In this document: positions 24,323 to 35,094 of the stretch, in pieces
Numbering within the stretch: position 1 is the first letter of the stretch
Layout of the letters: every line of letters starts with the position of its first letter
Assembly (NCBI GenBank): GCA_000004985.1
Contig: GG738856.1
Reading direction: 5' to 3' (one strand)
Origin: Naegleria gruberi
Lineage: Eukaryota
DNA: 64,000 bases
Program-made: the position numbers and the translations under genes
Notes under the pieces: model-generated
Told to the model about the DNA's origin: nothing
The model's database searches: none
The model's input: the letters and a program-made list of their open reading frames with translations, nothing else

Positions 24323-25675
24323 TTATTTAAAAGAAAGAACACAAGTTTTAGATCTGGATGAGCAATACAATTCACCATTTTCACAATCCAAAGCAATATC
24401 AATTCCCTTTCCAGATGTACTAACATCAAAGAATTCATTATTATAGTCAACCCATTCTTGTCCTTCTTGATTCATTGAAACAATTCCATATTGAGTAGTA
24501 AATATTCTACCAGTTTCGTTTTCAATTACTAATCTTCCAGTTCTTCCACATGGAGTTTTCAATTCAACCTTTTTGAGAATCTTTCCCTTCTTATTACATA
24601 CAATCATTTCGTATTCTGAAAGTAAAACCAAATCATTATTGGAATTCAATGCAAGTGATGCAAAATCAGTATTTCCAAATATATTTTGACCTTGCAAGTT
24701 TTCCCTTAACGATTTAATGACCTTTCCAGTGTCAGGACACAAAAAGTCAATGCCGCCTCTTTGTAACAGGTAAATAGTGCCATCATGCTTATCAACTGCC
24801 ATGCTTCTAATGATTCCCATGTCTTCATCATTCTCCCAATAGGTCATTTTACCATCTCTTGAAATTTTCACAATAGTTGAGGCACAACATCTGTCAATTA
24901 CATAGACAAGAGCATCATCTCTCAAATCATAGCATGTATGATAGTGATCTCTATCTTGTGGTTCTTTAAAATGGTTGACCATCAATTTAGTTTTAGTATC
25001 AAATTCAAAAATAGTACTACGATCTGAAACAAATAGTTTTCCATGTTTGGAATCCAAACAAATAGCATTTGGACCAGTGAATTCAAAATTGAAATCTTCA
25101 TTTTCACCCAATTTCTTTTCATCTTCATATTCAAGACTGAACGGAACATTTCTTGCTACAGTGGTCAGCACCTTATGAGTATGAGAACTAGTCTTGGTTG
25201 ACTTGTTGTGTAACTTGAAATGATTTTCACACAAATTAACCTTACACTGCTCACACCAATATCCAGCAGCGATAGACTCACCATGTTCCTTCAAACATTT
25301 AGCACAATCACAAGTATTTTTCAAAGCAGGAATCTCAACAACAGATGAAGCATGTGATTTCGTCTTGTTTGAATTATTATGCAAATTGATGTGATTTTCA
25401 CAAAAGTTCATTGAGCAAGTTGGACATGAATGGGTAGCAATCACTTCTTCCTCTTCATCCTTCAAACATTTATCACAATACTTGATGGAAATCTCAACCT
25501 TTGGTGGAAGAAATGAAATTTCCTTGACATGGCTTGTATGTGATCTCGTCTTGTTGGAATTATTGTGTAATCCCAAATGGTTCTCACACATATTCATGTT
25601 ACATTCTGAACAATGGTGCGTGGCTTGAACTTCCTCTTCGTCATCCTTCCAACATTTATCACAATGAATCATCAT
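24323..25675 (-). CDS. Three B-box-type zinc fingers plus an NHL-like six-bladed beta-propeller (TRIM-NHL-like, no RING)
   Basis: Three repeats of C-x2-C-x11-H-x-C-x2-C-x4-C-x2-H-x3-H (CDKCWKDDEEEVQATHHCSECNMNMCENHLGLH, etc.), followed by repeated hydrophobic-strand/GxxD motifs typical of NHL/YWTD propellers. Confidence 0.55.
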   Translation of the reverse strand: MMIHCDKCWKDDEEEVQATHHCSECNMNMCENHLGLHNNSNKTRSHTSHVKEISFLPPKVEISIKYCDKCLKDEEEEVIATHSCPTCSMNFCENHINLHNNSNKTKSHASSVVEIPALKNTCDCAKCLKEHGESIAAGYWCEQCKVNLCENHFKLHNKSTKTSSHTHKVLTTVARNVPFSLEYEDEKKLGENEDFNFEFTGPNAICLDSKHGKLFVSDRSTIFEFDTKTKLMVNHFKEPQDRDHYHTCYDLRDDALVYVIDRCCASTIVKISRDGKMTYWENDEDMGIIRSMAVDKHDGTIYLLQRGGIDFLCPDTGKVIKSLRENLQGQNIFGNTDFASLALNSNNDLVLLSEYEMIVCNKKGKILKKVELKTPCGRTGRLVIENETGRIFTTQYGIVSMNQEGQEWVDYNNEFFDVSTSGKGIDIALDCENGELYCSSRSKTCVLSFK

Positions 25676-26025
25676 TTGATTTGATTATTCTTAATTTTTT
25701 CTAAATATCTCTTAGAGAGATTTTATCAACAATGAAAGTGAGGAGTTTTGGGTGAATGTTCAATAACAAAGAGCTGTAATCTTACTATTGATTAGTACAG
25801 CGCACGAATCCTTGACCCAACATGTACAAATAGTCGGTGAACATACCATGAACACTAAAAGGAAATACTAATTAAGGCTTGCTCGAAAAGTACCTACCAT
25901 TAAATATGAACCTATTGGGATGTGTCGTAATCACTGAAATATATCACCTCGCTGCTAAACAGCGTCATCTTTTAGCCTCTCAATAATGTGTTGTTTGCTT
26001 ATTCAATTTGTCCACACAACAAAAA

Positions 26026-27039
26026 ATGTCCTCACAACTCTCTGTATTGAAAGAATGTCAATGGTGTTTACAGCATGATGATGAGCATTGTGTAGCTACT
26101 CATCAATGTGCTGATTGTAAGGTTGATTCACATGAATATTTATGTGAATTACATGCAAATATTCACAAACAAGTTACCAAGTATAAATCTCACAATATGC
26201 AATCGCTTTCCTTTGGACCTATTTGTGATTTGAAAATCAATCCTACTTTTAAATTGAGTGAATTCAAGTTTTATCAGCCAAGCAGTTGTGTAATCGCTCA
26301 ACAATCTTTATTCGTCACTGATCGTGATTCCATATTTGAGTTTAATTTGAAATCGGGTGAATTGGTACAACATTTTAATGAACCTCAAGAGAGATATCCA
26401 AGAAATTTATGTTATGATCCTTCTGATGATACTCTTGTTTATTGTATTGAAAGAGGATCTTCTTTTGATGTTGTTAAATTATCTAAAAATGGTAAAAGAA
26501 TTTTGTGGGAAATACAAGATCAATTACGAATTAGTGATATGTGTGTCGACAAGATGAATAATGGAAATGTCTACACCGTTCAAAAAGATGGTATTGTTGT
26601 CATCAATAAGGGAAAAGTTGTTAATACTTTGAGAGATGACTTGAACGGTGACAATATGTTCATCAATATTGCCTACGACTCATTGGTTGGTGTTGCAACT
26701 GATTGTAATGACCAATTGATCATTTCTACAAAGAGATGGATTTTGATTTGCGATAAAAAGGGAAAAATTCTCAAGAAGGGACAAAAGATTAGAGAAGGTG
26801 AAAGTTGTAGAATTCAAGTTGATCCAATTCAATCTGACAGAATTTATTATATTGGTGATGAATGTTTGGAATCATGTTTATTGAATGGAACCAAGAGATT
26901 GTTTCTGAAATATGATCCAAATTATGAAGAGAGGTTTGAAATTTATTGTGGAGCTGGTTTAGATTTTGTAATTGACTTTGAATCAAGACAATTAATTGTT
27001 GCTAATATTTGTAAAGGAAAGATTCAAGTATTCCACTAG
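26026..27039 (+). CDS. One B-box zinc finger plus an NHL-like beta-propeller; paralog of the neighbouring divergent gene
   Basis: CQWCLQHDDEHCVATHQCADCKVDSHEYLCELHANIH is a B-box. The propeller segments match gene 24323..25675 (FEF(N/D), LICDKKGKILKKG vs IVCNKKGKILKKV). The true ATG is at 26026; the track start at 26008 is a TTG. Confidence 0.55.
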   Translation: MSSQLSVLKECQWCLQHDDEHCVATHQCADCKVDSHEYLCELHANIHKQVTKYKSHNMQSLSFGPICDLKINPTFKLSEFKFYQPSSCVIAQQSLFVTDRDSIFEFNLKSGELVQHFNEPQERYPRNLCYDPSDDTLVYCIERGSSFDVVKLSKNGKRILWEIQDQLRISDMCVDKMNNGNVYTVQKDGIVVINKGKVVNTLRDDLNGDNMFINIAYDSLVGVATDCNDQLIISTKRWILICDKKGKILKKGQKIREGESCRIQVDPIQSDRIYYIGDECLESCLLNGTKRLFLKYDPNYEERFEIYCGAGLDFVIDFESRQLIVANICKGKIQVFH

Positions 27040-27065: not shown

Positions 27066-30000
27066 TTATTTTTCAATGCCTGGTCTAACTCTATTTAGAT
27101 CTAATTTCATAGATTGAGATCTCTTCATAGATCTAGCTGCTACTTGAGACTTGAATACAGCTTCCTTGGCTTTCTTGAATTGTAAAACAAATTCTGAAAT
27201 TAAAGCAAAGAATTCATCTTCTGCCAATTGCTTGTCGGTGGATTCAACAGGAACAAAGTGATAGAATTCATAACAGGCAGTGAATTCCTTTTGGAGTTTT
27301 TCAAATGATTCTTTGGTTGAAGGGAAGTCCTTTTGGCAGAGTTCATAAAATTCTTCTAACATTTTCTTGTAAGAATCAGTATAGGCTCCTCTTGGAATAT
27401 CTTGCTTGGATTTACAAATAAACTTGTACATTGATTCTAATTCAGAAAAATTCAACACAAGTCCAGGAACAGTAATTATGACACCATTATTACACACACC
27501 TGCCTCGTAGAGTTCTTCATCAAAGTTTCTTGTTTCTTCATCACATATTTTTACAAGATAGCTTATCAAAGTAGTACTCTTATCGACGGTTGATCTTGTA
27601 TCTTTAAGTTTAGTCAAAATTCTCAAATCAAATCCTTCACCTTCCAAACGCTTCTTACCTCTGTTCATAAAGCTACCAATGGCAAGGACATATGACAAAA
27701 GCTTGGCAAATGACTTGCAATTAACTATACACTCGATGGCTTTTCTCTTCTTTTCAATCTTTTCACTAACTTCTTTAAGTAAGATTGGGAATGATGACAT
27801 GTATCTCATCAATCTAAGCTTGGAGGCAACATCTTCAATAGCCAAAATATCCAAGAAGAAAATATCAGACTTTGGAAGTTCTTCGCGATCCAACCCCTTA
27901 AGTTTAGTCTTCATTGTTAAGGTATCACCACTACTTGTGAATTGTTCTAAATTCTCAATTTGTTGATTAGTGAGCTTTGTAATATCAAGATTATTGATAG
28001 CTTCAACAACAATTTCATTACTAATAGATTTAAATTGACTGTTAATAATAATTTCAATATTTCTAGCTGTCTTGTTATCAATAATACCTTCAGTTGCCAA
28101 TGATTTTTGTAAAGTTCTAGGAGAAGCTTTGGTACCGCCTCTTGGTGAGGTAAATCCTTGTCTTGGAGTGGCACCACCAGTGGCTGGTTCTGGTTCTTCT
28201 TCAGCCTTTGTTTGTTTAGCAAACAACATTTCAATTTTTTCCAAATCAATCATGTTAGGATCAACTTCAATCTTACTCCACACAGAATATTCCGAGTCAA
28301 CTTTCTTGATTGGCTTCCAATGCAATTGTTTGGTCTTACTGACCTCTTCTTCTTCAGTGTGTTGAATGTACTTCTTTTTAGTACCAAAAGAGATTGCGCC
28401 AGGTGGAGGTGGAACACCAGGTGGGAAAGGAATACCGCCAGGTGGGAGAGGGATTCCCATGCCTGGTGGAGGTGGAATGTTACCAAATGGAGGTGGAGGC
28501 GGAATGTTACTACCTGGAGGTGGAGGAATATTACTTCCACCAGGTGGAAGTGGAATATTGGAAGATGGTAAAGGAATATTACTATTTGGCACAGGAGAAT
28601 TATTTACAGATGTTGGTTGTGTTGTAGTACTTGGTTCAGGTTCCTTTTCTTCCTCTACTATATTCATATCAGCATAAGGTTTTGTCGAGATTAGATATCT
28701 GGCATGTTCAATTTCTGTTGTTCTAGATAAGAAATGAGGACACTTTTCAAGTGAACAAACTAATTCAGTCCAATAACTTGTTGAAAGATCAGCTGCATCT
28801 TCCTCACTTGCACAATCAATTTCTGAAAAGTTTAACTCTAGTTTAAAGTTTCCGGAGAAACTTGGTGAATTGTGAGCCCAATCGAGTTCACTCTTGTCTA
28901 CCACTACTACAGTGCTTGTTAAAAAAAGAGTATTAAAAGTAAATCTAAAGAGAGAAATAATGTTACCATCGTCAGCCATTGTAAAAGCAAGAAGAATAAA
29001 ATCTCCCATCAATGGTTTGCTTTCATTGAATGGTAATGTATAGTGGAACCATGTTTCAATTCTTGTAGAAGGTCTTTCTTCACCTCTTGGTGAACTCATA
29101 AATGTTTTTCTTCTCTCAACTCTTGGAGCATTATTAACAGAAGCTGTAGTAAATGTAGAAAACAAAATATCGGTTTGTTTTCTTACGACGAAATATAACT
29201 TTCTATATTGGAAAGAATTTAGACTGTCAGGAACTGTATCTTCATCATCACCTTTAATTGCAAGCCATTCATCTCTTTTAGGTGTTGTTCTAGATGGTTG
29301 CAAACTCATTCTTCTATCGCGTGATGTTGACTCAACCATTGATGTTGCCATATTATGATTAGAATGTTTTACACATAACCTAGAACTATTCATGGAAATG
29401 CATTGCAATCTAAATACTGAAGGTTTAAAGAAACCTTTAAATGTTGGGTTGACTGAAGGAGAAAATGTCAACATTGGAACATCGTGTACCATCAAAGTGA
29501 GTGGTCTTTGAAGTGAAATAAGGAATAAATTAGCATAACGATAAACTGATGGTTCAAGACTCTTCAAAAGAGTCATAGATTTTGGATTCAATTTCTTTTC
29601 TAATCTAGTATATACAATATCTCTTGCTTGGTTCAAAATCATCATGGTATTTAAAATTCTCTGACTATAATTTGTTGTTGTGGTGGTTGTTGTTTGGTTA
29701 CTTGTAGTAGAAACTGCATCAAGATCATTATTATTGAGAAGCACTTTTCCATCTTCTTCATCTGCTGTTGTAACTGTAATATTAACTTCATTATCTTGTG
29801 ATTGATTTGGTTCCACATTAGGTGAAACTTCTGTTGAATTTGATTGTGGTTGTTGCTGATCAGAAGTATCCAAATTTTCAAGAGAATTTACACTAACAGA
29901 GGCCAGATTAGATGATGAACCTCCTGCTCCATCTAAAACAACAGTTGTGACTGTTCTTTCTGGATGATGAGATTTGAGACTAGATTGTTCAATTCCGTAC

Positions 30001-30320
30001 ATATCCATATACATTTTAGAATCAGTATATGAAACAAATACAGCTGCTAATAAAAGTGCATAACAAGTTGTTTTTGTTGATGCAACAATAACAATACAAT
30101 AATCTTTGGAAGTTGAATAATTTAGGAGGAAATTATCAATCATGGATGAAAGGGAAAGAAGTACTGGAAGTTGTTCGAAATGTTCACTAATGACAGGAGT
30201 TGAACCAATTTCGAAACATGGTCTCGTCGTTACGGCAGGAAATGGTTTAGAAGTGAAATTGAATACAAAAACCTTGTCACTGTACTTATCAGTCAACATG
30301 GTTGATATTCTATTGTTCAT
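27066..30320 (-). CDS. Formin: PTEN-like (phosphatase-dead) N-terminal domain, C2-like region, proline-rich FH1 and an FH2 domain
   Basis: The FH1 (NIPLPPGGSNIPPPPGSNIPPPPPFGNIPPPPGMGIPLPPGGIPFPPGVPPPPG) is followed by an FH2-like region (SLLKAEIIKWKEQSEMF..., LTNQQIENLEQF, KSFAKLLSYVLAIGSFMNRG..GFDLRIL). The N-terminus FEQLPVLLSLSSMIDNFLLNYSTSKDYCIVIVASTKTTCYALLLAAVFVSY aligns to the PTEN phosphatase core, with the HCKAGKGR catalytic loop replaced by IVASTKTT. Confidence 0.8.
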   Translation of the reverse strand: MNNRISTMLTDKYSDKVFVFNFTSKPFPAVTTRPCFEIGSTPVISEHFEQLPVLLSLSSMIDNFLLNYSTSKDYCIVIVASTKTTCYALLLAAVFVSYTDSKMYMDMYGIEQSSLKSHHPERTVTTVVLDGAGGSSSNLASVSVNSLENLDTSDQQQPQSNSTEVSPNVEPNQSQDNEVNITVTTADEEDGKVLLNNNDLDAVSTTSNQTTTTTTTNYSQRILNTMMILNQARDIVYTRLEKKLNPKSMTLLKSLEPSVYRYANLFLISLQRPLTLMVHDVPMLTFSPSVNPTFKGFFKPSVFRLQCISMNSSRLCVKHSNHNMATSMVESTSRDRRMSLQPSRTTPKRDEWLAIKGDDEDTVPDSLNSFQYRKLYFVVRKQTDILFSTFTTASVNNAPRVERRKTFMSSPRGEERPSTRIETWFHYTLPFNESKPLMGDFILLAFTMADDGNIISLFRFTFNTLFLTSTVVVVDKSELDWAHNSPSFSGNFKLELNFSEIDCASEEDAADLSTSYWTELVCSLEKCPHFLSRTTEIEHARYLISTKPYADMNIVEEEKEPEPSTTTQPTSVNNSPVPNSNIPLPSSNIPLPPGGSNIPPPPGSNIPPPPPFGNIPPPPGMGIPLPPGGIPFPPGVPPPPGAISFGTKKKYIQHTEEEEVSKTKQLHWKPIKKVDSEYSVWSKIEVDPNMIDLEKIEMLFAKQTKAEEEPEPATGGATPRQGFTSPRGGTKASPRTLQKSLATEGIIDNKTARNIEIIINSQFKSISNEIVVEAINNLDITKLTNQQIENLEQFTSSGDTLTMKTKLKGLDREELPKSDIFFLDILAIEDVASKLRLMRYMSSFPILLKEVSEKIEKKRKAIECIVNCKSFAKLLSYVLAIGSFMNRGKKRLEGEGFDLRILTKLKDTRSTVDKSTTLISYLVKICDEETRNFDEELYEAGVCNNGVIITVPGLVLNFSELESMYKFICKSKQDIPRGAYTDSYKKMLEEFYELCQKDFPSTKESFEKLQKEFTACYEFYHFVPVESTDKQLAEDEFFALISEFVLQFKKAKEAVFKSQVAARSMKRSQSMKLDLNRVRPGIEK

Positions 30321-31383
30321 TTCATCAGTTCCATTGTCATTGTGAATATCTAGTAGTAGTAATAGTAATAGTATTGATGATGATATGGAGATGGTAAATA
30401 TTTAGAATATCACACAATCATAGCAGTGATAAGCAGAGATGATGAAAATTATTGATAGTAGTAGGGTGTTGGTGATTGGATGATATCATCACAAAGATTT
30501 TAATAGTAATATTCCATCATAAATGTTATAGTTTGTCATTATCGGAATAAACCAACAGCCATTTGAATAAATTACTTGACATTTTCATACACAAATCTAC
30601 TTACATTTCAGCCTCTCGTTTATATTAATATCTATAATATCATTATAGTTCCAATAGTTACGCAGAGCCTTGAACATTTTTCAAAATAGGAGAGAATAAT
30701 ACTATGTACACACTCTATACTCTCCAAATTAACGTTCTCGGATTTTTCTAAAAATCGGTGGTGTTGGTGTTCTTCTTCTTCTTGTCGTATCGATTTTCTA
30801 TTATAATCAAACACAATAATAACACCTCTCCAATTCGCTGATCGTTGTTGTTGTGATTTTTTTAAAATTTGTTGCTGTGAATGCAAACGTCTCGTTATTA
30901 ACGCACAAACGTGTAACCTAGAAAATATTTTATCACTCTCTCGGAGACTCTTTACACGGAAGAGGGAAAAGGAGTTTTGAAGAGGTTGATTGTACAATTG
31001 TTGGTGTTATTGAATGGTGAAATACGACTCTTCAACGGGATGGTTTTTTGATGCTGATTTGTCAAAGGTTCTTTGTTCAACAGTGAAAGTTGGTGAGCTG
31101 CTGGTTGTTGGAAACTAGACGAAAGAGTGAAGAATGTAAACTGTCTTGTTTTTTTCAAAGTGGAAAGTATTTTGATACAAGTGATGAAAGGAATGCTGTC
31201 ATGAAACACGCTCAATGAAGATCACCAGCAAGAAGGGCAATTTGGCAAGTTCCGAAAATAACAGACGTAAATATTTTGTCAACATTCATCAGCTTTTGTA
31301 TGAGGAAACCACGAAAGCAAGATCTCTCAAAATAACAACACAGTCAATCAACGAAAATGTGATCAAGATAAAAACAAAACTGT

Positions 31384-34300
31384 TTATTGCAATAATTTAT
31401 CAACCATAGAATCGTAACGATGATAAGTTTCGTCTGATTCAGTTCTTTCATGAACTGATTGATTTGAGGCAGTTTGTGATGCACCTGGTGTTGATGGTTT
31501 GTTTGGAGAGTTACCGACAAAATATGGACTTGAATTGCTCAAGTTATTGGCAGAGTTAGAAGTTAGATGAGAAGGAGATTGGCCAAACATAGAGAAAGTG
31601 GATGGTGGATATCCAATTGTGTTTTGAGTCATTGGACTTGCAAATGAACCCATTCCAAATGAGTTACTGTCCAAGAATGGAGAAAGAGTTCTTCCCAAAC
31701 CACTTGGATTTCCACTTTGTGATTGAGGATTAAAAATGGATTGATATGGAGGAGAGTAGAGTGAGAATAAATTTCCACTTTCCATCAATGAAGGTCCATT
31801 TGATAATAAATTTGAGGTGGAATTTCCCAATCCACCAAGAATACCTGGATCAGTGTATGCTCTCTTGTTGAGAGGAGCTTGGAAATTGGTTTTGATTTGA
31901 AGAGTTGGAGATGGTGGAGTTTGTGGACAAGTAGATGTTGAAATATCATTATCATTACTACCACTTGTACTAGTGGTGGTATTATTCGACATTTTTGGTG
32001 TCGAATTGCTTGGTGCTTCATATCTTACTGTCTTTTTAACTTCATTTGGAGAGGTCAAACCGCTTGGTGTTTTACCTGTTCTCATAGAACTCTTCTTTTG
32101 AATTGGCATGAGAGTTGGAGGTTCTGATGATGAAGAGGATGCAGAAGTGTTGAGAGTTGGGGTCTTAGCAGATTCTTGATCGCCAAGGTATTTCATTTGT
32201 GTCTTAACCATTTCTCTTGAAAGGTGAACTTGATATTTAGGATTATTCATAGCAAATTGAACAAGTTGACCTTCATCAATTCTAGTTTCTGGATACACCT
32301 TTTTCAAGGTATTGACAATGTTACCAATAAAGTAACATCCTTTGAATTTAGGATTTTCAGCTTTGAGAAGTTTGTTTTTGAAAATAAACTCTAGTTTAAA
32401 ATCAATTTCCTCAGGATCAATATTTGATCTTGGAATGTGAACTGATGAAAGGAGCCAATTTGGCATAGAGTTGTAAGACTTGCCATCAACTGATGGAGAT
32501 TGAGGATACATTGGAGACATGGCACTGAATTCACTTGGTGACATGAGTGTATCTGAAACACTGTTATTTTCATCACTTCCTGACAAGTTATCTTGGTCAC
32601 CCAATTCATCAGTTTGTCCATTTTCCTCATTGGTCATTCTACTAAAGTATAATTGTTGTTGTAATCTCATCTTTGAAATATCAATTGTTCTCATTTGATT
32701 ATTAGAAGGATAGGTAACTTCAGATGAGGTTTGATTTTGTTCCCAATACTTCTTATTCTCAGTAACAATACTATCAATAATTCTTCTGATTGAAGAATCA
32801 ATTTTGTTTTGTTGTGGACCTTGACCACCATAGGAGAAATTACGTAAAGTGTAATTACTTTGTAAACCAATTGCAAGTGCTTCACCACCTTCATGATAAA
32901 TTTGATTGTCTGTCAAGCACAATCTTGTTAATGATCTATTCTTGGAGAGAACTTGAGCCCAACTTGAAGCACCTTGGTTCTTTGCATAGTTAGCACCTAA
33001 ATCTAAGTGTCTTAGGGTTGTGTTGGTTTCTGCCATATTAGAAAGAGCTAAAATACCCTTCAAGTGAATTTCACAACTTCTCAAATCTAGAGAAGTAAGG
33101 ACTGTATTGACTGCAAGAGCAGCTGAAAGTGCAACTGCACCTCCATTACCAATTTCATTGTTACCTAAATCCAATCCAGTAACAGCTGTTTGCTCACATT
33201 TCAATGCTTCTGCAAGAGCTACAGCACCCTTTTTTCTAATTCTATTATTTGCCAATCCCAAAGTAGTAATTGATGGATTAACTTTGAGAAGATTGGCAAC
33301 GTAGAGAGCACCTTCATCTCCGAGTTCATTGTCATTAAAATTGAGAGCATGAACGCTGTGATTGTCTTTGAGAGCTTGACAAAGACTCTTGACACCAACT
33401 GGACCAATAGCATTTGATTGAAGTTCAAGAACTTTGAGAGATTGGTTAGTAATTAAAGCAGTTGAAAGACACGAAGCACCCATAGCCTTGATACTATTTC
33501 CTTTCAATTGAATATCACTCAATTGAGTATTAGACTTGAGTGTTTCTGCCAAATATTTCATACCATCACTTCCAATACCATTATCTCTTAAACCCAATGA
33601 AGTCAAAGATGTATTATTAATAAGAGCATCAGCAATACTCTTAATACCGACAACATCAACTTTGTTTCCACCCAAGTGGAGTTGTGTCAAGGTTTGATTA
33701 TGTTTCAAACCTTCTCCTAGGATTCTGGCACCTTCTGGACCAATTTTGTTGTCACCCAATTTCAATCTCTTCAAAACCTTATTAGTCTTGAGCATTTCAG
33801 CAACTAATTCACAACAAGCATCAGTCAACTCATTTCCAAACAATTCAATACTAATAATTTGTTTGTGATATGGTGATTGTGGAAGAAGCAACTCCTTGAT
33901 AATTAAATTTGCTCCAACATCACTAATATTATTGTGATTCAATAGAATTTCATTGACATCGAATAGAGTTTGATTTGTGTTCAAATTTGAACCCTTTCTA
34001 TTGTTATTACCTCCTCTATTGTTTCTATCATTTTGTACGGAAGTTAATGCATGAACAAGAGCTTTGATATGATTGTCATCTGCTTGAGCATGGCAAATGG
34101 ATAACTTTAGTAACGGCTCTTGATTACGAACAGCAACCTTGATGAGTCTGATAACTTCCTGACTTGGTTTAACTCCATATTGATCACAAAATGATAAGTA
34201 TTGAGTACGTAAAGCATGACTTCTCTTTACAACATCATTCAAGTTACCCAATTGAGTTGGAGAATTGACACTATTAGCACGATTGTTTTGTTGGTCATTT

Positions 34301-35094
34301 CTTCTCTTGAATTGATTATCATTGTTATAACGATTTGGTGTGACTGCAGAACGACTTTGTGCTCTCTTCAAATTTTGAGTATTGATCACAGGAGTTGTAG
34401 TTGACTGACTAACATTATTACGTTTGTTATTAATAGTCAACATGCTTGGAAGTCCATTAGATGAATCATCAGACGAATCATTGGAATGAGTTGGAGAGGA
34501 TCTACTAACATTACTCTGAGTTGTACTATTACTTTGGGTTGAGTAATTACTTTGATTGCTACCAGAGGATAAACCACTCAAAATACTATTATTCAAACTA
34601 CTTCCACTGTTACTATTCAACAATGGAGTTGTTGCTGTTTTAGTAGTACTATTATTATTAGGACTATTGTAAGCAAATGATGATTGTTTGGCAACAAAAT
34701 TATTCAAATAACTTGAACCACTTGAGGTTGTTGTATTATTCATGTTATTATTATTACTACCATTCAATAGATTGTATTGATAGGAAGAGGTATTGTAGTT
34801 ATTTTCTTCCATCTTGTAATTGTTATTAGTAGTGGAACCTCCCAATAGTTGTTGTTGTTGTTGTTGATGTTGAGGAGAATACATCATTGGATGATGAGAG
34901 AGCATCATTGGATTGTTTTGCGGCATCATGTTCATTTGGTGAGAATACATCATCATTGGAGAGGATGTATTGCTGTTGTTGTTATTGTTACCCATTGAAA
35001 CATTGTTGGAGGTTGTAGTACCCATCATGTTATTATTGGGAAAGAAGAAACCCTGTTGTTGTTGTTGTTGTTGTTGTTGTTGCTTGTTATTCAT
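31384..35094 (-). CDS. Large ribonuclease-inhibitor-type leucine-rich-repeat protein with poly-Q/N and S/T-rich tracts
   Basis: At least 12 tandem 28-aa RI-like LRRs (LxxLxLxxNxIGxxGAxxLAxALxxNxxLxxLxL). N-terminal (Q)12 and N/S-rich low complexity, and a conserved C-terminal globular segment (KLEFIFKNKLLKAENPKFKGCYFIGNIVNTLKKVYPE...). Confidence 0.6.
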   Translation of the reverse strand: MNNKQQQQQQQQQQGFFFPNNNMMGTTTSNNVSMGNNNNNSNTSSPMMMYSHQMNMMPQNNPMMLSHHPMMYSPQHQQQQQQLLGGSTTNNNYKMEENNYNTSSYQYNLLNGSNNNNMNNTTTSSGSSYLNNFVAKQSSFAYNSPNNNSTTKTATTPLLNSNSGSSLNNSILSGLSSGSNQSNYSTQSNSTTQSNVSRSSPTHSNDSSDDSSNGLPSMLTINNKRNNVSQSTTTPVINTQNLKRAQSRSAVTPNRYNNDNQFKRRNDQQNNRANSVNSPTQLGNLNDVVKRSHALRTQYLSFCDQYGVKPSQEVIRLIKVAVRNQEPLLKLSICHAQADDNHIKALVHALTSVQNDRNNRGGNNNRKGSNLNTNQTLFDVNEILLNHNNISDVGANLIIKELLLPQSPYHKQIISIELFGNELTDACCELVAEMLKTNKVLKRLKLGDNKIGPEGARILGEGLKHNQTLTQLHLGGNKVDVVGIKSIADALINNTSLTSLGLRDNGIGSDGMKYLAETLKSNTQLSDIQLKGNSIKAMGASCLSTALITNQSLKVLELQSNAIGPVGVKSLCQALKDNHSVHALNFNDNELGDEGALYVANLLKVNPSITTLGLANNRIRKKGAVALAEALKCEQTAVTGLDLGNNEIGNGGAVALSAALAVNTVLTSLDLRSCEIHLKGILALSNMAETNTTLRHLDLGANYAKNQGASSWAQVLSKNRSLTRLCLTDNQIYHEGGEALAIGLQSNYTLRNFSYGGQGPQQNKIDSSIRRIIDSIVTENKKYWEQNQTSSEVTYPSNNQMRTIDISKMRLQQQLYFSRMTNEENGQTDELGDQDNLSGSDENNSVSDTLMSPSEFSAMSPMYPQSPSVDGKSYNSMPNWLLSSVHIPRSNIDPEEIDFKLEFIFKNKLLKAENPKFKGCYFIGNIVNTLKKVYPETRIDEGQLVQFAMNNPKYQVHLSREMVKTQMKYLGDQESAKTPTLNTSASSSSSEPPTLMPIQKKSSMRTGKTPSGLTSPNEVKKTVRYEAPSNSTPKMSNNTTTSTSGSNDNDISTSTCPQTPPSPTLQIKTNFQAPLNKRAYTDPGILGGLGNSTSNLLSNGPSLMESGNLFSLYSPPYQSIFNPQSQSGNPSGLGRTLSPFLDSNSFGMGSFASPMTQNTIGYPPSTFSMFGQSPSHLTSNSANNLSNSSPYFVGNSPNKPSTPGASQTASNQSVHERTESDETYHRYDSMVDKLLQ
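35055..35084 (-). repeat. (TTG)n / (CAA)n microsatellite encoding the poly-Gln tract at the start of the LRR gene
   Basis: ctgttgttgttgttgttgttgttgttgttgc on the plus strand; this is (CAA)n on the coding strand. Confidence 0.8.

What the first reader, a model, noticed from the sequence alone, without database searches (positions are those of the whole stretch)
27066..30320. Formin with an N-terminal phosphatase-dead PTEN-like domain (plant class II architecture)
The 1084-aa formin has an FH1 poly-Pro and an FH2. Its first roughly 100 aa align to the PTEN phosphatase core, but the CX5R catalytic loop is replaced (IVASTKTT where HCKAGKGR would be). PTEN-formins are classically described in plants (class II) and a few protists. 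Finding one here supports lipid- or membrane-targeted actin nucleation in this organism.
Basis: partly seen in the sequence, partly recalled or inferred. Interest (0 to 1): 0.5.

Follow-up and report, generated by a model that had tools for sequence, protein, structure and literature searches.

The report
Naegleria formin with dead PTEN-like domain
This is a real Naegleria gruberi gene for an actin-filament-building formin whose front end is a PTEN-like module without its catalytic residues.

Summary
The 1084-aa ORF at 27066..30320 (-) is real. It is most of N. gruberi XP_002679869.1 / UniProt D2V870. The full gene has a 73-nt first exon (30605..30677) and a 255-nt intron, and the spliced 1118-aa product matches the database protein 100%.

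Pfam finds FH2 (E 1e-52) and PTEN_C2 (35 bits, cutoff 27). No sequence HMM detects the phosphatase-like half. Three other results do:
- An 8-sequence heterolobosean family profile aligns to PTEN plus a plant class II formin at 98.6% probability. The phosphatase half alone gives 84%; cross-domain controls give 0.1-0.2%.
- VASTKTTC lies where PTEN has HCKAGKGR, so the Cys and Arg are gone. All eight relatives also lack CX5R.

The architecture is dead PTP-like + C2, then FH1, then FH2, with no Rho-binding or DAD elements. Membrane targeting remains an inference, because PTEN's basic membrane-binding motifs are not conserved.

PTEN or "class II" formins have already been reported in Naegleria (2020, 2021). 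The hydrophobic dead P-loop region probably explains why this protein was listed in 2008 as a putative transmembrane formin. Novelty is low.

The parts
30605..30677 (-). Exon 1 (73 nt): the true start codon and residues 1-24 (MFKALRNYWNYNDIIDININERLK) plus the first base of codon 25.
   Evidence: In-phase GTAAGT donor. The spliced product is 100% identical to XP_002679869.1. The peptide is conserved in N. lovaniensis, N. fowleri and Willaertia.
30350..30604 (-). Intron, 255 nt, GTAAGT...TAG.
   Evidence: Removing it reproduces the database protein exactly.
27066..30349 (-). Exon 2: residues 25-1118 and the stop codon. It contains the 1084-aa ORF reported in the finding.
30003..30347 (-). Phosphatase (PTP/DSP)-like fold, N-terminal part (residues 26-140; the fold starts near residue 13 in exon 1).
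30063..30086 (-). Remnant of the catalytic P-loop: V113 A114 S T K T T C120 in place of PTEN H123 C124 K A G K G R130.
   Evidence: hhalign alignment. No CX5R in the PTP-like region. The same position is degenerate in all 8 family members.
29658..30002 (-). Disordered Ser/Thr/Asn-rich acidic insertion inside the PTP-like domain (residues 141-255).
   Evidence: pLDDT below 50. Only 42% identity to N. lovaniensis against 80% for the PTP core. Absent from the paralog and from the Acrasis relative. Net charge -12.
29502..29657 (-). C-terminal helices of the PTP-like domain (residues 256-307), including EPSVYRY, which aligns to PTEN IPSQRRY.
   Evidence: hhalign. pLDDT 83-89. P291, S292, R295 and Y296 are invariant in the family.
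28812..29417 (-). PTEN-type C2 domain (residues 336-537), interrupted by a disordered insertion at 353-406.
   Evidence: Pfam PTEN_C2 at 35.1 bits over residues 463-534. hhalign on the C2 half alone gives 98.2%, E 4e-14. 92% identical to N. lovaniensis.
28725..28811 (-). Conserved helix after the C2 domain (residues 538-566; YWTEL...KCPHFL). Family-specific, function unknown.
   Evidence: Helix 541-559 in the model. Y550 and L554 are invariant in 8 sequences.
28395..28589 (-). FH1: proline-rich region with four tracts of 4-5 prolines (residues about 612-676).
27174..28352 (-). FH2 domain (residues 691-1083).
   Evidence: Pfam E 1.1e-52. Full-length alignment to the DAAM1 FH2 crystal structure 2z6e, E 4e-19. 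The lasso Trp, the Ile of NIEI and the G-x-F-M-N motif are kept. The Lys of DTK is Arg here.

Best explanation
This is the Naegleria gruberi gene for formin XP_002679869.1 (D2V870). It has two exons and encodes 1118 aa.

Domain order:
- A PTEN-like module made of a phosphatase-fold domain and a PTEN-type C2 domain, held together as in PTEN, auxilin and voltage-sensing phosphatases.
- An FH1 with four short polyproline tracts.
- A complete FH2.
- No Rho-GTPase-binding, DID or DAD elements.

The phosphatase fold has lost the whole HCX5R signature, so it cannot be a cysteine phosphatase.

Most likely mechanism (inferred, not shown): the FH2 dimer nucleates and rides the barbed end of actin filaments, and the FH1 feeds it profilin-actin. 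The dead PTEN-like module acts as a non-catalytic localisation or regulatory module. By analogy with moss For2A and auxilin/GAK, it most probably docks the formin on a phosphoinositide-containing membrane. The formin would then be controlled by location, not by Rho-relieved autoinhibition.

The gene belongs to a Heterolobosea-wide family: two paralogs each in Naegleria and Willaertia, and a relative in Acrasis.
For: Shown here:
- ORF and gene model; identity to the N. gruberi protein.
- FH2 and PTEN_C2 Pfam hits above threshold in this protein and three orthologs.
- An exhaustive profile search with the N-terminal region returned only 9 proteins at E<=1e-3. Apart from two that were rows of the query alignment, they were four more formins (E 2e-11 to 4e-27), a C2+FH1 fragment, a genuine HCxxGxxR PTEN-like protein and a plant class II formin.
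- hhalign of the family against PTEN plus class II: 98.6%, E 6e-16, collinear over PTEN residues 51-351.
- Domain-wise hhalign: PTP 84%, C2 98.2%, cross-domain controls 0.1-0.2%.
- AF2 model with pTM 0.66 and folded parts at pLDDT 75-92.
- Foldseek: the top 18 hits are all PTEN, VSP or auxilin, then a drop from E 3e-6 to 2e-2.
- No CX5R in the PTP region.
- The PTEN-like module is more conserved between Naegleria species (PTP 80%, C2 92%) than the FH2 (61%), which argues it is functional.
- The FH2 aligns full-length to DAAM1 with the key Ile retained.
- No Drf_GBD, FH3 or DAD hit at E<=1.

From the literature:
- PTEN-like domains of class II formins bind PI(3,5)P2 and localise the formin (cited in PMC11194305).
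- Naegleria PTEN or class II formins are listed in PMC7594500 and PMC8296547.
Against: - The membrane-binding step is analogy only.
- The basic motifs that PTEN uses to bind membranes are not conserved. The CBR3 loop KQNKMLKKDK corresponds to the acidic MADDGNII. The c-alpha-2 stretch KANKDKANR corresponds to WAHNSPS. The N-terminal motif has 2 basic residues, not 5 (alignment).
- The folded module is net neutral, 39 K/R against 39 D/E.
- The P-loop pocket residues that hold the phosphoinositide headgroup in PTEN are gone.
- The PTP-half homology rests on a shallow 8-sequence profile and on an AlphaFold model. AlphaFold has seen PTEN structures.
- Sequence HMMs alone do not detect the PTP half.
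- The FH2 Lys of the DTK motif is Arg in this orthogroup; the consequence is unknown.
Confidence: 0.8

Rival explanations
1. The dead PTEN-like module is not a lipid anchor. It binds a protein partner or regulates the formin, for example by binding microtubules, coated-vesicle components or the formin's own FH2.
For: PTEN's basic membrane-binding motifs and its P-loop pocket are not conserved. The best Foldseek hit is auxilin, a dead PTEN-like module in a vesicle-uncoating protein. [quoted passage not shown] A conserved family-specific helix follows the C2 domain.
Against: To my knowledge, the characterised PTP+C2 modules (PTEN, VSP, auxilin/GAK, moss For2A) bind phosphoinositide membranes. 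The acidic CBR3-equivalent loop is shared with a plant class II formin (P0012: LNDDMERE), and that class still binds lipid.
Confidence: 0.25
2. Only the C2 half is homologous to PTEN. The N-terminal 140 residues are an unrelated alpha/beta domain that the reader and AlphaFold over-interpreted.
For: No Pfam hit for residues 1-151 even at E<=10. Profiles of 4 and 8 sequences find no significant PTP in PDB; the best is auxilin at E 0.12. The 4-sequence AF2 model was poor, pLDDT 37.
Confidence: 0.08
3. The protein is an integral-membrane formin, as proposed for this gene model in 2008, anchored by a transmembrane helix.
For: The most hydrophobic 19-mer of the protein is residues 110-128, Kyte-Doolittle mean 1.82. 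Grunt et al. 2008 listed two N. gruberi formins as signal-peptide plus TM formins. Cvrckova and colleagues (2024) identify them as XP_002679869.1 (this protein) and XP_002682144.1.
Against: The 2024 paper states that the current records have no signal peptide and withdraws the claim. Residues 109-132 are modelled at pLDDT about 90 as the buried strand-loop-helix that forms the P-loop region of the PTP fold. They align to PTEN beta5 and alpha4.
Confidence: 0.02
4. The module is still an enzyme that uses non-canonical residues.
For: One Cys (C120) and one Lys (K117) lie in the loop remnant. Glu-His (E80-H81) lies near the WPD-loop position.
Against: The Cys aligns to the Arg position, not to the nucleophile. 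No CX5R exists. The loop differs in every family member, so no alternative catalytic constellation is conserved.
Confidence: 0.02

Closest known systems
Plant class II formins (moss For2A, Arabidopsis AtFH13/14/18/20; here represented by Eutrema V4LRU2 = P0012)
   Same: Same order: dead PTEN-like (PTP+C2), then FH1, then FH2. Similar N-terminus (MFKALRNY.. against MALFRKLFY..). Acidic CBR3-equivalent loop followed by (L/M)FR(F/V)xFNT. The plant protein is retrieved by the N-terminal profile at E 2e-4.
   Different: Plants keep His-Cys and lose the Arg (MHCERGAWP in P0012; Grunt 2008). Naegleria has lost His, Cys and Arg. In a published tree the Naegleria FH2 lies outside the plant class II clade. 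Naegleria has about 115-aa and 55-aa disordered insertions in the module.
Non-plant PTEN-formins (choanoflagellates, chytrids, microsporidia, heterokonts; Pruyne 2017, PMC5628938)
   Same: PTP-C2-FH1-FH2 architecture in unicellular eukaryotes. In the Prostak et al. tree, D2V870 groups with a diatom formin (support 93).
   Different: Pruyne's survey did not include Naegleria (0 occurrences). According to Grunt 2008, stramenopile formins keep the P-loop Arg but lack the His. I did not test the relationship between the PTEN-like domains.
N. gruberi paralog XP_002682144.1 / D2V201 (P0007), with the Willaertia, Acrasis and metagenomic relatives P0008-P0010
   Same: Same module and order, aligned end to end. 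Sister to D2V870 with 100% support in a published FH2 tree.
   Different: The paralog lacks the long insertions, is 1013 aa, and gets no Pfam PTEN_C2 hit at all.
Auxilin / GAK PTEN-like domain (PDB 3n0a)
   Different: In auxilin the module is fused to clathrin-binding and J domains, not to FH1-FH2. About 10-15% identity.
PTEN and voltage-sensing phosphatases (PDB 1d5r, 7jtx, 3awf)
   Different: PTEN and VSP are active enzymes with HCKAGKGR and with basic PBM, CBR3 and c-alpha-2 membrane motifs. All of these are lost here.

Membership tests
Formins (FH2 proteins) | FH2 domain | tested here: met
   Pfam PF02181 E 1.1e-52, model positions 5-372 of 372. Full-length alignment to the DAAM1 FH2 structure, E 4e-19.
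Formins (FH2 proteins) | Proline-rich FH1 immediately N-terminal to the FH2 | tested here: met
   Four tracts of 4-5 Pro at residues 633-674, 39% Pro.
Formins (FH2 proteins) | Conserved actin-binding Ile (knob) and Lys (post), and the lasso Trp | tested here: inconclusive
   The Trp of LHWKPI and the Ile of ARNIEI align to DAAM1. The Lys of DTK is Arg (DTR) in this orthogroup. Which residues are functionally critical is from my own knowledge of Bni1p and mDia1 mutagenesis.
PTEN-like (PTP + C2) module | PTEN-type C2 domain | tested here: met
   Pfam PF10409 at 35.1 bits against a cutoff of 27.1; orthologs score 38-44 bits. hhalign on the C2 half alone gives 98.2%.
PTEN-like (PTP + C2) module | PTP/DSP-fold domain packed against the C2 domain | tested here: met
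Active PTEN / cysteine phosphatases | HCX5R catalytic loop (Cys nucleophile and Arg) | tested here: not met
   VASTKTTC aligns to HCKAGKGR. There is no CX5R in the PTP region, and none of the 8 family members has a CX5R motif.
Active PTEN / cysteine phosphatases | Basic membrane-binding motifs (N-terminal PBM, CBR3 loop, c-alpha-2) | tested here: not met
   CBR3 corresponds to the acidic MADDGN. c-alpha-2 corresponds to WAHNSPS. The N-terminus has 2 basic residues. The folded module is net neutral.
Plant class II formins (clade) | PTEN-like, FH1, FH2 domain order | tested here: met
Plant class II formins (clade) | FH2 sequence falls inside the plant class II clade | not tested
   I built no tree. 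In the Newick file of Prostak et al. (bioRxiv 10.1101/2020.06.12.142943, supplement 7), D2V870 groups with D2V201 and D2VV74 (100) and a diatom formin (93). That lies outside the Physcomitrium and Arabidopsis class II clade, although in a neighbouring super-clade (81).
Diaphanous-related formins | GBD/DID (FH3) N-terminus and C-terminal DAD | tested here: not met
   No Drf_GBD, Drf_FH3 or Drf_DAD hit at E<=1. The protein ends 35 residues after the FH2.
Transmembrane (class I-type) formins | Signal peptide plus a membrane-spanning helix | tested here: not met
   The only strongly hydrophobic segment (110-128) is the buried beta5/P-loop/alpha4 element of the PTP fold. The literature has withdrawn the TM assignment. 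I ran no dedicated signal-peptide predictor.

The most novel reading that the evidence does not exclude
The heterolobosean PTEN-formins (two paralogs each in Naegleria and Willaertia, and a relative in Acrasis) are an old Discoba branch of one ancestral PTEN-formin lineage. This would extend Pruyne's proposal of a PTEN-formin in the last eukaryotic common ancestor. The family inactivated the phosphatase in a third way, losing His, Cys and Arg together, where plants lost the Arg and stramenopiles the His.

A corollary concerns a published claim. The one formin difference reported between pathogenic N. fowleri and N. gruberi is a PTEN domain 'missing' from N. gruberi formin 62754. That would be a detection artefact, because the N. 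gruberi paralog D2V201 has the module but scores nothing in Pfam.
Probability: 0.4. Interest if true: 0.35.

Novelty: already known. Interest (0 to 1): 0.2.

Why it matters
The architecture shows that Naegleria has formins that are probably positioned by a PTEN-like module, not switched on by Rho GTPases. Naegleria is a microtubule-free crawling amoeba and a relative of the brain-eating N. fowleri. Humans lack this formin type, so it has been suggested as a possible drug target (PMC8296547).

This analysis adds four modest points to the public record:
- Direct evidence for the Pfam-invisible dead phosphatase half.
- The correct two-exon gene model as read from the raw sequence.
- A likely reason why this protein was listed in 2008 as a putative transmembrane formin.
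- A hint that a published N. fowleri against N. gruberi difference may be a threshold artefact.

None of this changes how formins or PTEN-like domains are understood.

Tried and rejected
1. Word-indexed homolog search with the N-terminal 587 aa found nothing, not even the protein itself. Low-complexity words probably swamped the 8000-candidate prefilter. The same tool with an FH2 family alignment returned 3 irrelevant formins. With the full-length protein it returned only the 4 orthologs.
2. phmmer or hmmsearch of the N-terminal region against PDB found no PTEN. I tried the single sequence, a 4-sequence PTP profile and a 4-sequence insert-deleted profile. The top hit for the PTP profile was a spurious bacterial ApeA at E 0.03. 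The 8-sequence profile gave auxilin at a non-significant E 0.12.
3. hhalign of the 4-sequence profile against the single human PTEN sequence gave 17% probability, and only for the C2 half.
Contiguous substrings were accepted.
5. AlphaFold with only the 4 orthologs gave an unusable model, pLDDT 37.
6. The afdb50 fold library was not available.
7. I could not map JGI id 62754 to an NCBI or UniProt accession. The link to the paralog D2V201 is therefore an inference.
8. The transmembrane reading and the residual-enzyme reading were considered and rejected (see the rival explanations).
9. Neighbouring genes are unrelated (an LRR protein and B-box-like proteins). No operon-type context is expected in this eukaryote.
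Full report
**What is in the sequence**

The window is AT-rich (about 33% GC) and gene-dense. An uninterrupted 1084-aa ORF lies exactly at 27066..30320 on the minus strand.

Upstream of its ATG the frame stays open back to a TAG acceptor. A further 255 nt upstream there is a 73-nt segment, ATG...AAAT, followed by GTAAGT. Joining 30605 to 30349 is in phase and gives an 1118-aa protein. That protein is 100% identical over its full length to 'FH2 domain-containing protein [Naegleria gruberi]' (XP_002679869.1 / EFC47125.1 / UniProt D2V870).

The window is therefore N. gruberi nuclear DNA, and the finding covers exon 2 of a two-exon gene. The exon-1 peptide is conserved in N. lovaniensis, N. fowleri and Willaertia magna.

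**Checking the observation**

Pfam gives two hits:
- FH2: E 1.1e-52, essentially the whole model.
- PTEN_C2: 35.1 bits against a curated cutoff of 27.1, E 1.2e-8.

The three orthologs give the same two hits, with PTEN_C2 at 38-44 bits.

The FH1 is real: four tracts of 4-5 prolines at residues 633-674. The FH2 aligns end to end with the DAAM1 FH2 crystal structure (E 4e-19). The lasso Trp, the knob Ile (NIEI) and the GxFMN motif are kept. The Lys of the DTK motif is Arg in this orthogroup. There is no Drf GBD, FH3 or DAD signal.

**The phosphatase-like half**

This was the uncertain part of the claim. Sequence HMMs do not see it:
- No Pfam hit for residues 1-151 even at E<=10.
- No PTEN in PDB with the single sequence or with 4-sequence profiles.
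- hhalign of the 4 orthologs against human PTEN aligned only the C2 half, at 17% probability.

I then ran the exhaustive profile search with the N-terminal 583 residues of the four orthologs against 1.84 billion representative proteins. It returned only nine proteins at E<=1e-3:
- Two were rows of the query alignment itself (P0001 and P0004).
- Four are additional formins (E 4e-27 to 2e-11): the N. gruberi paralog XP_002682144.1 / D2V201, a second Willaertia formin, an Acrasis kona formin-like protein and a metagenomic one.
- One is a genuine PTEN-like phosphatase with HCQSGKGR (E 1e-4).
- One is a plant class II formin from Eutrema (E 2e-4).
- One is a C2+FH1 fragment (E 3e-4).

For the Acrasis protein, the best-matching stretch is the phosphatase-like part itself (query 37-139).

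With the resulting 8-sequence family alignment (A5), hhalign against a small PTEN set (human PTEN, the PTEN-like protein and the class II formin; A6) gave 98.6% probability, E 5.9e-16. The match covers 266 columns and is collinear from PTEN residue 51 to 351.

| Split by domain | Probability | E-value |
|---|---|---|
| PTP half against PTP half | 84% | 7.4e-6 |
| C2 half against C2 half | 98.2% | 4e-14 |
| Two cross-domain controls | 0.1-0.2% | 0.3-0.6 |

**Structure prediction**

AlphaFold with the four orthologs alone was useless (pLDDT 37). With the 8-sequence family alignment, no templates and no PTEN sequences in the alignment, it gave pTM 0.66. Folded parts have pLDDT 75-92 and three segments are disordered (141-255, 308-332, 350-406).

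Foldseek against PDB: the 18 hits with E<=1e-3 are all two-domain PTEN-type modules. They are auxilin 3n0a (E 5e-10), PTEN, Ci-VSP and Dr-VSP, with target-normalised TM 0.55-0.70. The list then drops to E 0.02.

Caveat: this is a predicted model, and AlphaFold was trained on PTEN structures. The profile evidence is independent of the model.

**Catalytic site**

The profile alignment places V113-A114-S-T-K-T-T-C120 opposite H123-C124-K-A-G-K-G-R130. No CX5R occurs in the PTP-like region.

None of the eight family members has a CX5R motif; the loop is degenerate in a different way in each. Plants keep H-C and lose the Arg (MHCERGAWP in P0012). Stramenopile formins are reported to keep the Arg and lack the His (Grunt 2008). 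The heterolobosean pattern is therefore a third way of being dead.

**What it probably does**

Shown: this is an intact FH1-FH2 formin with a conserved, non-catalytic PTP+C2 module and no Diaphanous-type regulatory elements. The module is under stronger constraint than the FH2:

| Region | Identity, N. gruberi against N. lovaniensis |
|---|---|
| C2 | 92% |
| PTP core | 80% |
| FH2 | 61% |
| Insertions | about 40% |

Inferred: the module positions or regulates the formin, most likely on a phosphoinositide membrane, as described for moss For2A (literature cited) and for auxilin/GAK (my own knowledge).

Against a simple transfer of PTEN's mechanism:
- The CBR3 loop is acidic (MADDGN). A plant class II formin shares this feature.
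- The c-alpha-2 basic cluster and most of the N-terminal basic motif are missing.
- The folded module is net neutral.

A protein-binding or microtubule-binding role therefore remains a serious rival.

**Comparison with what is known**

- The protein is in NCBI, UniProt and EukProt, and the protein collection's precomputed Pfam annotation for it lists PTEN_C2 + FH2.
- Velle and Fritz-Laylin 2020 list 'Class II formins' among Naegleria actin regulators.
- Herman et al. 2021 report two PTEN-domain formins among 14 in N. fowleri.
- Prostak et al. included D2V870 in an FH2 phylogeny. There it pairs with D2V201 (100), then D2VV74 (100), then a diatom formin (93). It lies next to, but outside, the plant class II clade.
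- Pruyne 2017 proposed an ancestral eukaryotic PTEN-formin but did not sample Naegleria.
- Grunt et al. 2008 scored Heterolobosea as PTEN-negative and transmembrane-positive.
- Cvrckova and colleagues in 2024 identified the two putative transmembrane Naegleria formins as XP_002679869.1 (this protein) and XP_002682144.1 (its paralog) and withdrew the claim.

The most hydrophobic 19-mer of this protein is residues 110-128. That is exactly the degenerate P-loop plus helix alpha-4, buried in the PTP fold. This is the likely source of the old transmembrane prediction; that link is my inference.

**Verdict**

'Class II' is true of the architecture but not shown for the clade, and the membrane-targeting function is untested. 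The feature is already known, so interest is low.

Small additions from this work:
- The gene model as read from raw sequence.
- Evidence for the Pfam-invisible dead phosphatase half.
- A Heterolobosea-wide family with two ancient paralogs.
- The suspicion that the published PTEN-domain difference between N. fowleri and N. gruberi formins reflects a detection threshold and not biology. The paralog D2V201 has the module but gets no Pfam PTEN_C2 hit. I could not confirm that D2V201 is the JGI 62754 of that paper.

Noticed in passing
Not in the window: P0007 = N. gruberi XP_002682144.1 / D2V201 (1013 aa): This paralog has the same dead PTP+C2-FH1-FH2 layout (profile E 4e-27; aligned end to end in A5). 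Pfam finds no PTEN_C2 in it (only FH2 on the full protein at E<=0.01), and nothing at all in its N-terminal 384 residues even at E<=10. Herman et al. 2021 report that N. gruberi formin '62754' lacks the PTEN domain present in its N. fowleri homolog. That difference may be a detection artefact if 62754 is this protein, which I could not confirm.
   Followed up: partly
window 29991..30020 (residues 110-128 map to about 30039..30095): The most hydrophobic 19-mer of the protein (IVIVASTKTTCYALLLAAV, KD 1.82) is the degenerate P-loop plus helix alpha-4 of the PTP-like fold. This protein and its paralog are the two Naegleria formins once published as putative transmembrane formins.
   Followed up: yes
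window 28722..28742 (residues 561-567): A literal CX5R string (CPHFLSR) lies after the C2 domain. It is conserved in the three Naegleria species but not in Willaertia (CSSHQLLK) or in the paralogs (CPYYLKG). It lies at the end of the post-C2 helix region, not in a P-loop, so it is most likely a coincidence.
   Followed up: partly
window 28812..30347 against 27174..28352: The catalytically dead PTEN-like module is more conserved between N. gruberi and N. lovaniensis (C2 92%, PTP core 80%) than the FH2 domain (61%). The three insertions are only about 40% identical.
   Followed up: yes
window 26008..27039 (+): A convergent neighbouring ORF (343 aa, Cys/His-rich N-terminus, no Pfam hit) ends 26 nt from the formin's stop codon, so the 3' ends of the two genes must nearly touch or overlap.
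   Followed up: partly
window 24323..25675 (-): A 450-aa ORF with an ANCHR-like B-box hit at 26.4 bits, just under the 27-bit cutoff. The ORF at 26008..27039 also has a Cys/His-rich N-terminus, so the two may be related genes.
   Followed up: no
window 31384..35094 (-): The upstream neighbour is a 1236-aa protein with ribonuclease-inhibitor-type leucine-rich repeats (LRR_6, E 5e-38), flanked by long poly-Q, Asn-rich and Ser-rich low-complexity tracts.
   Followed up: partly
Not in the window: N. gruberi D2VV74: In a published FH2 tree a third N. gruberi formin (D2VV74) is sister to the two PTEN-like formins with 100% support. The N-terminal profile search did not retrieve it. It may have lost or replaced the PTEN-like module.
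   Followed up: no
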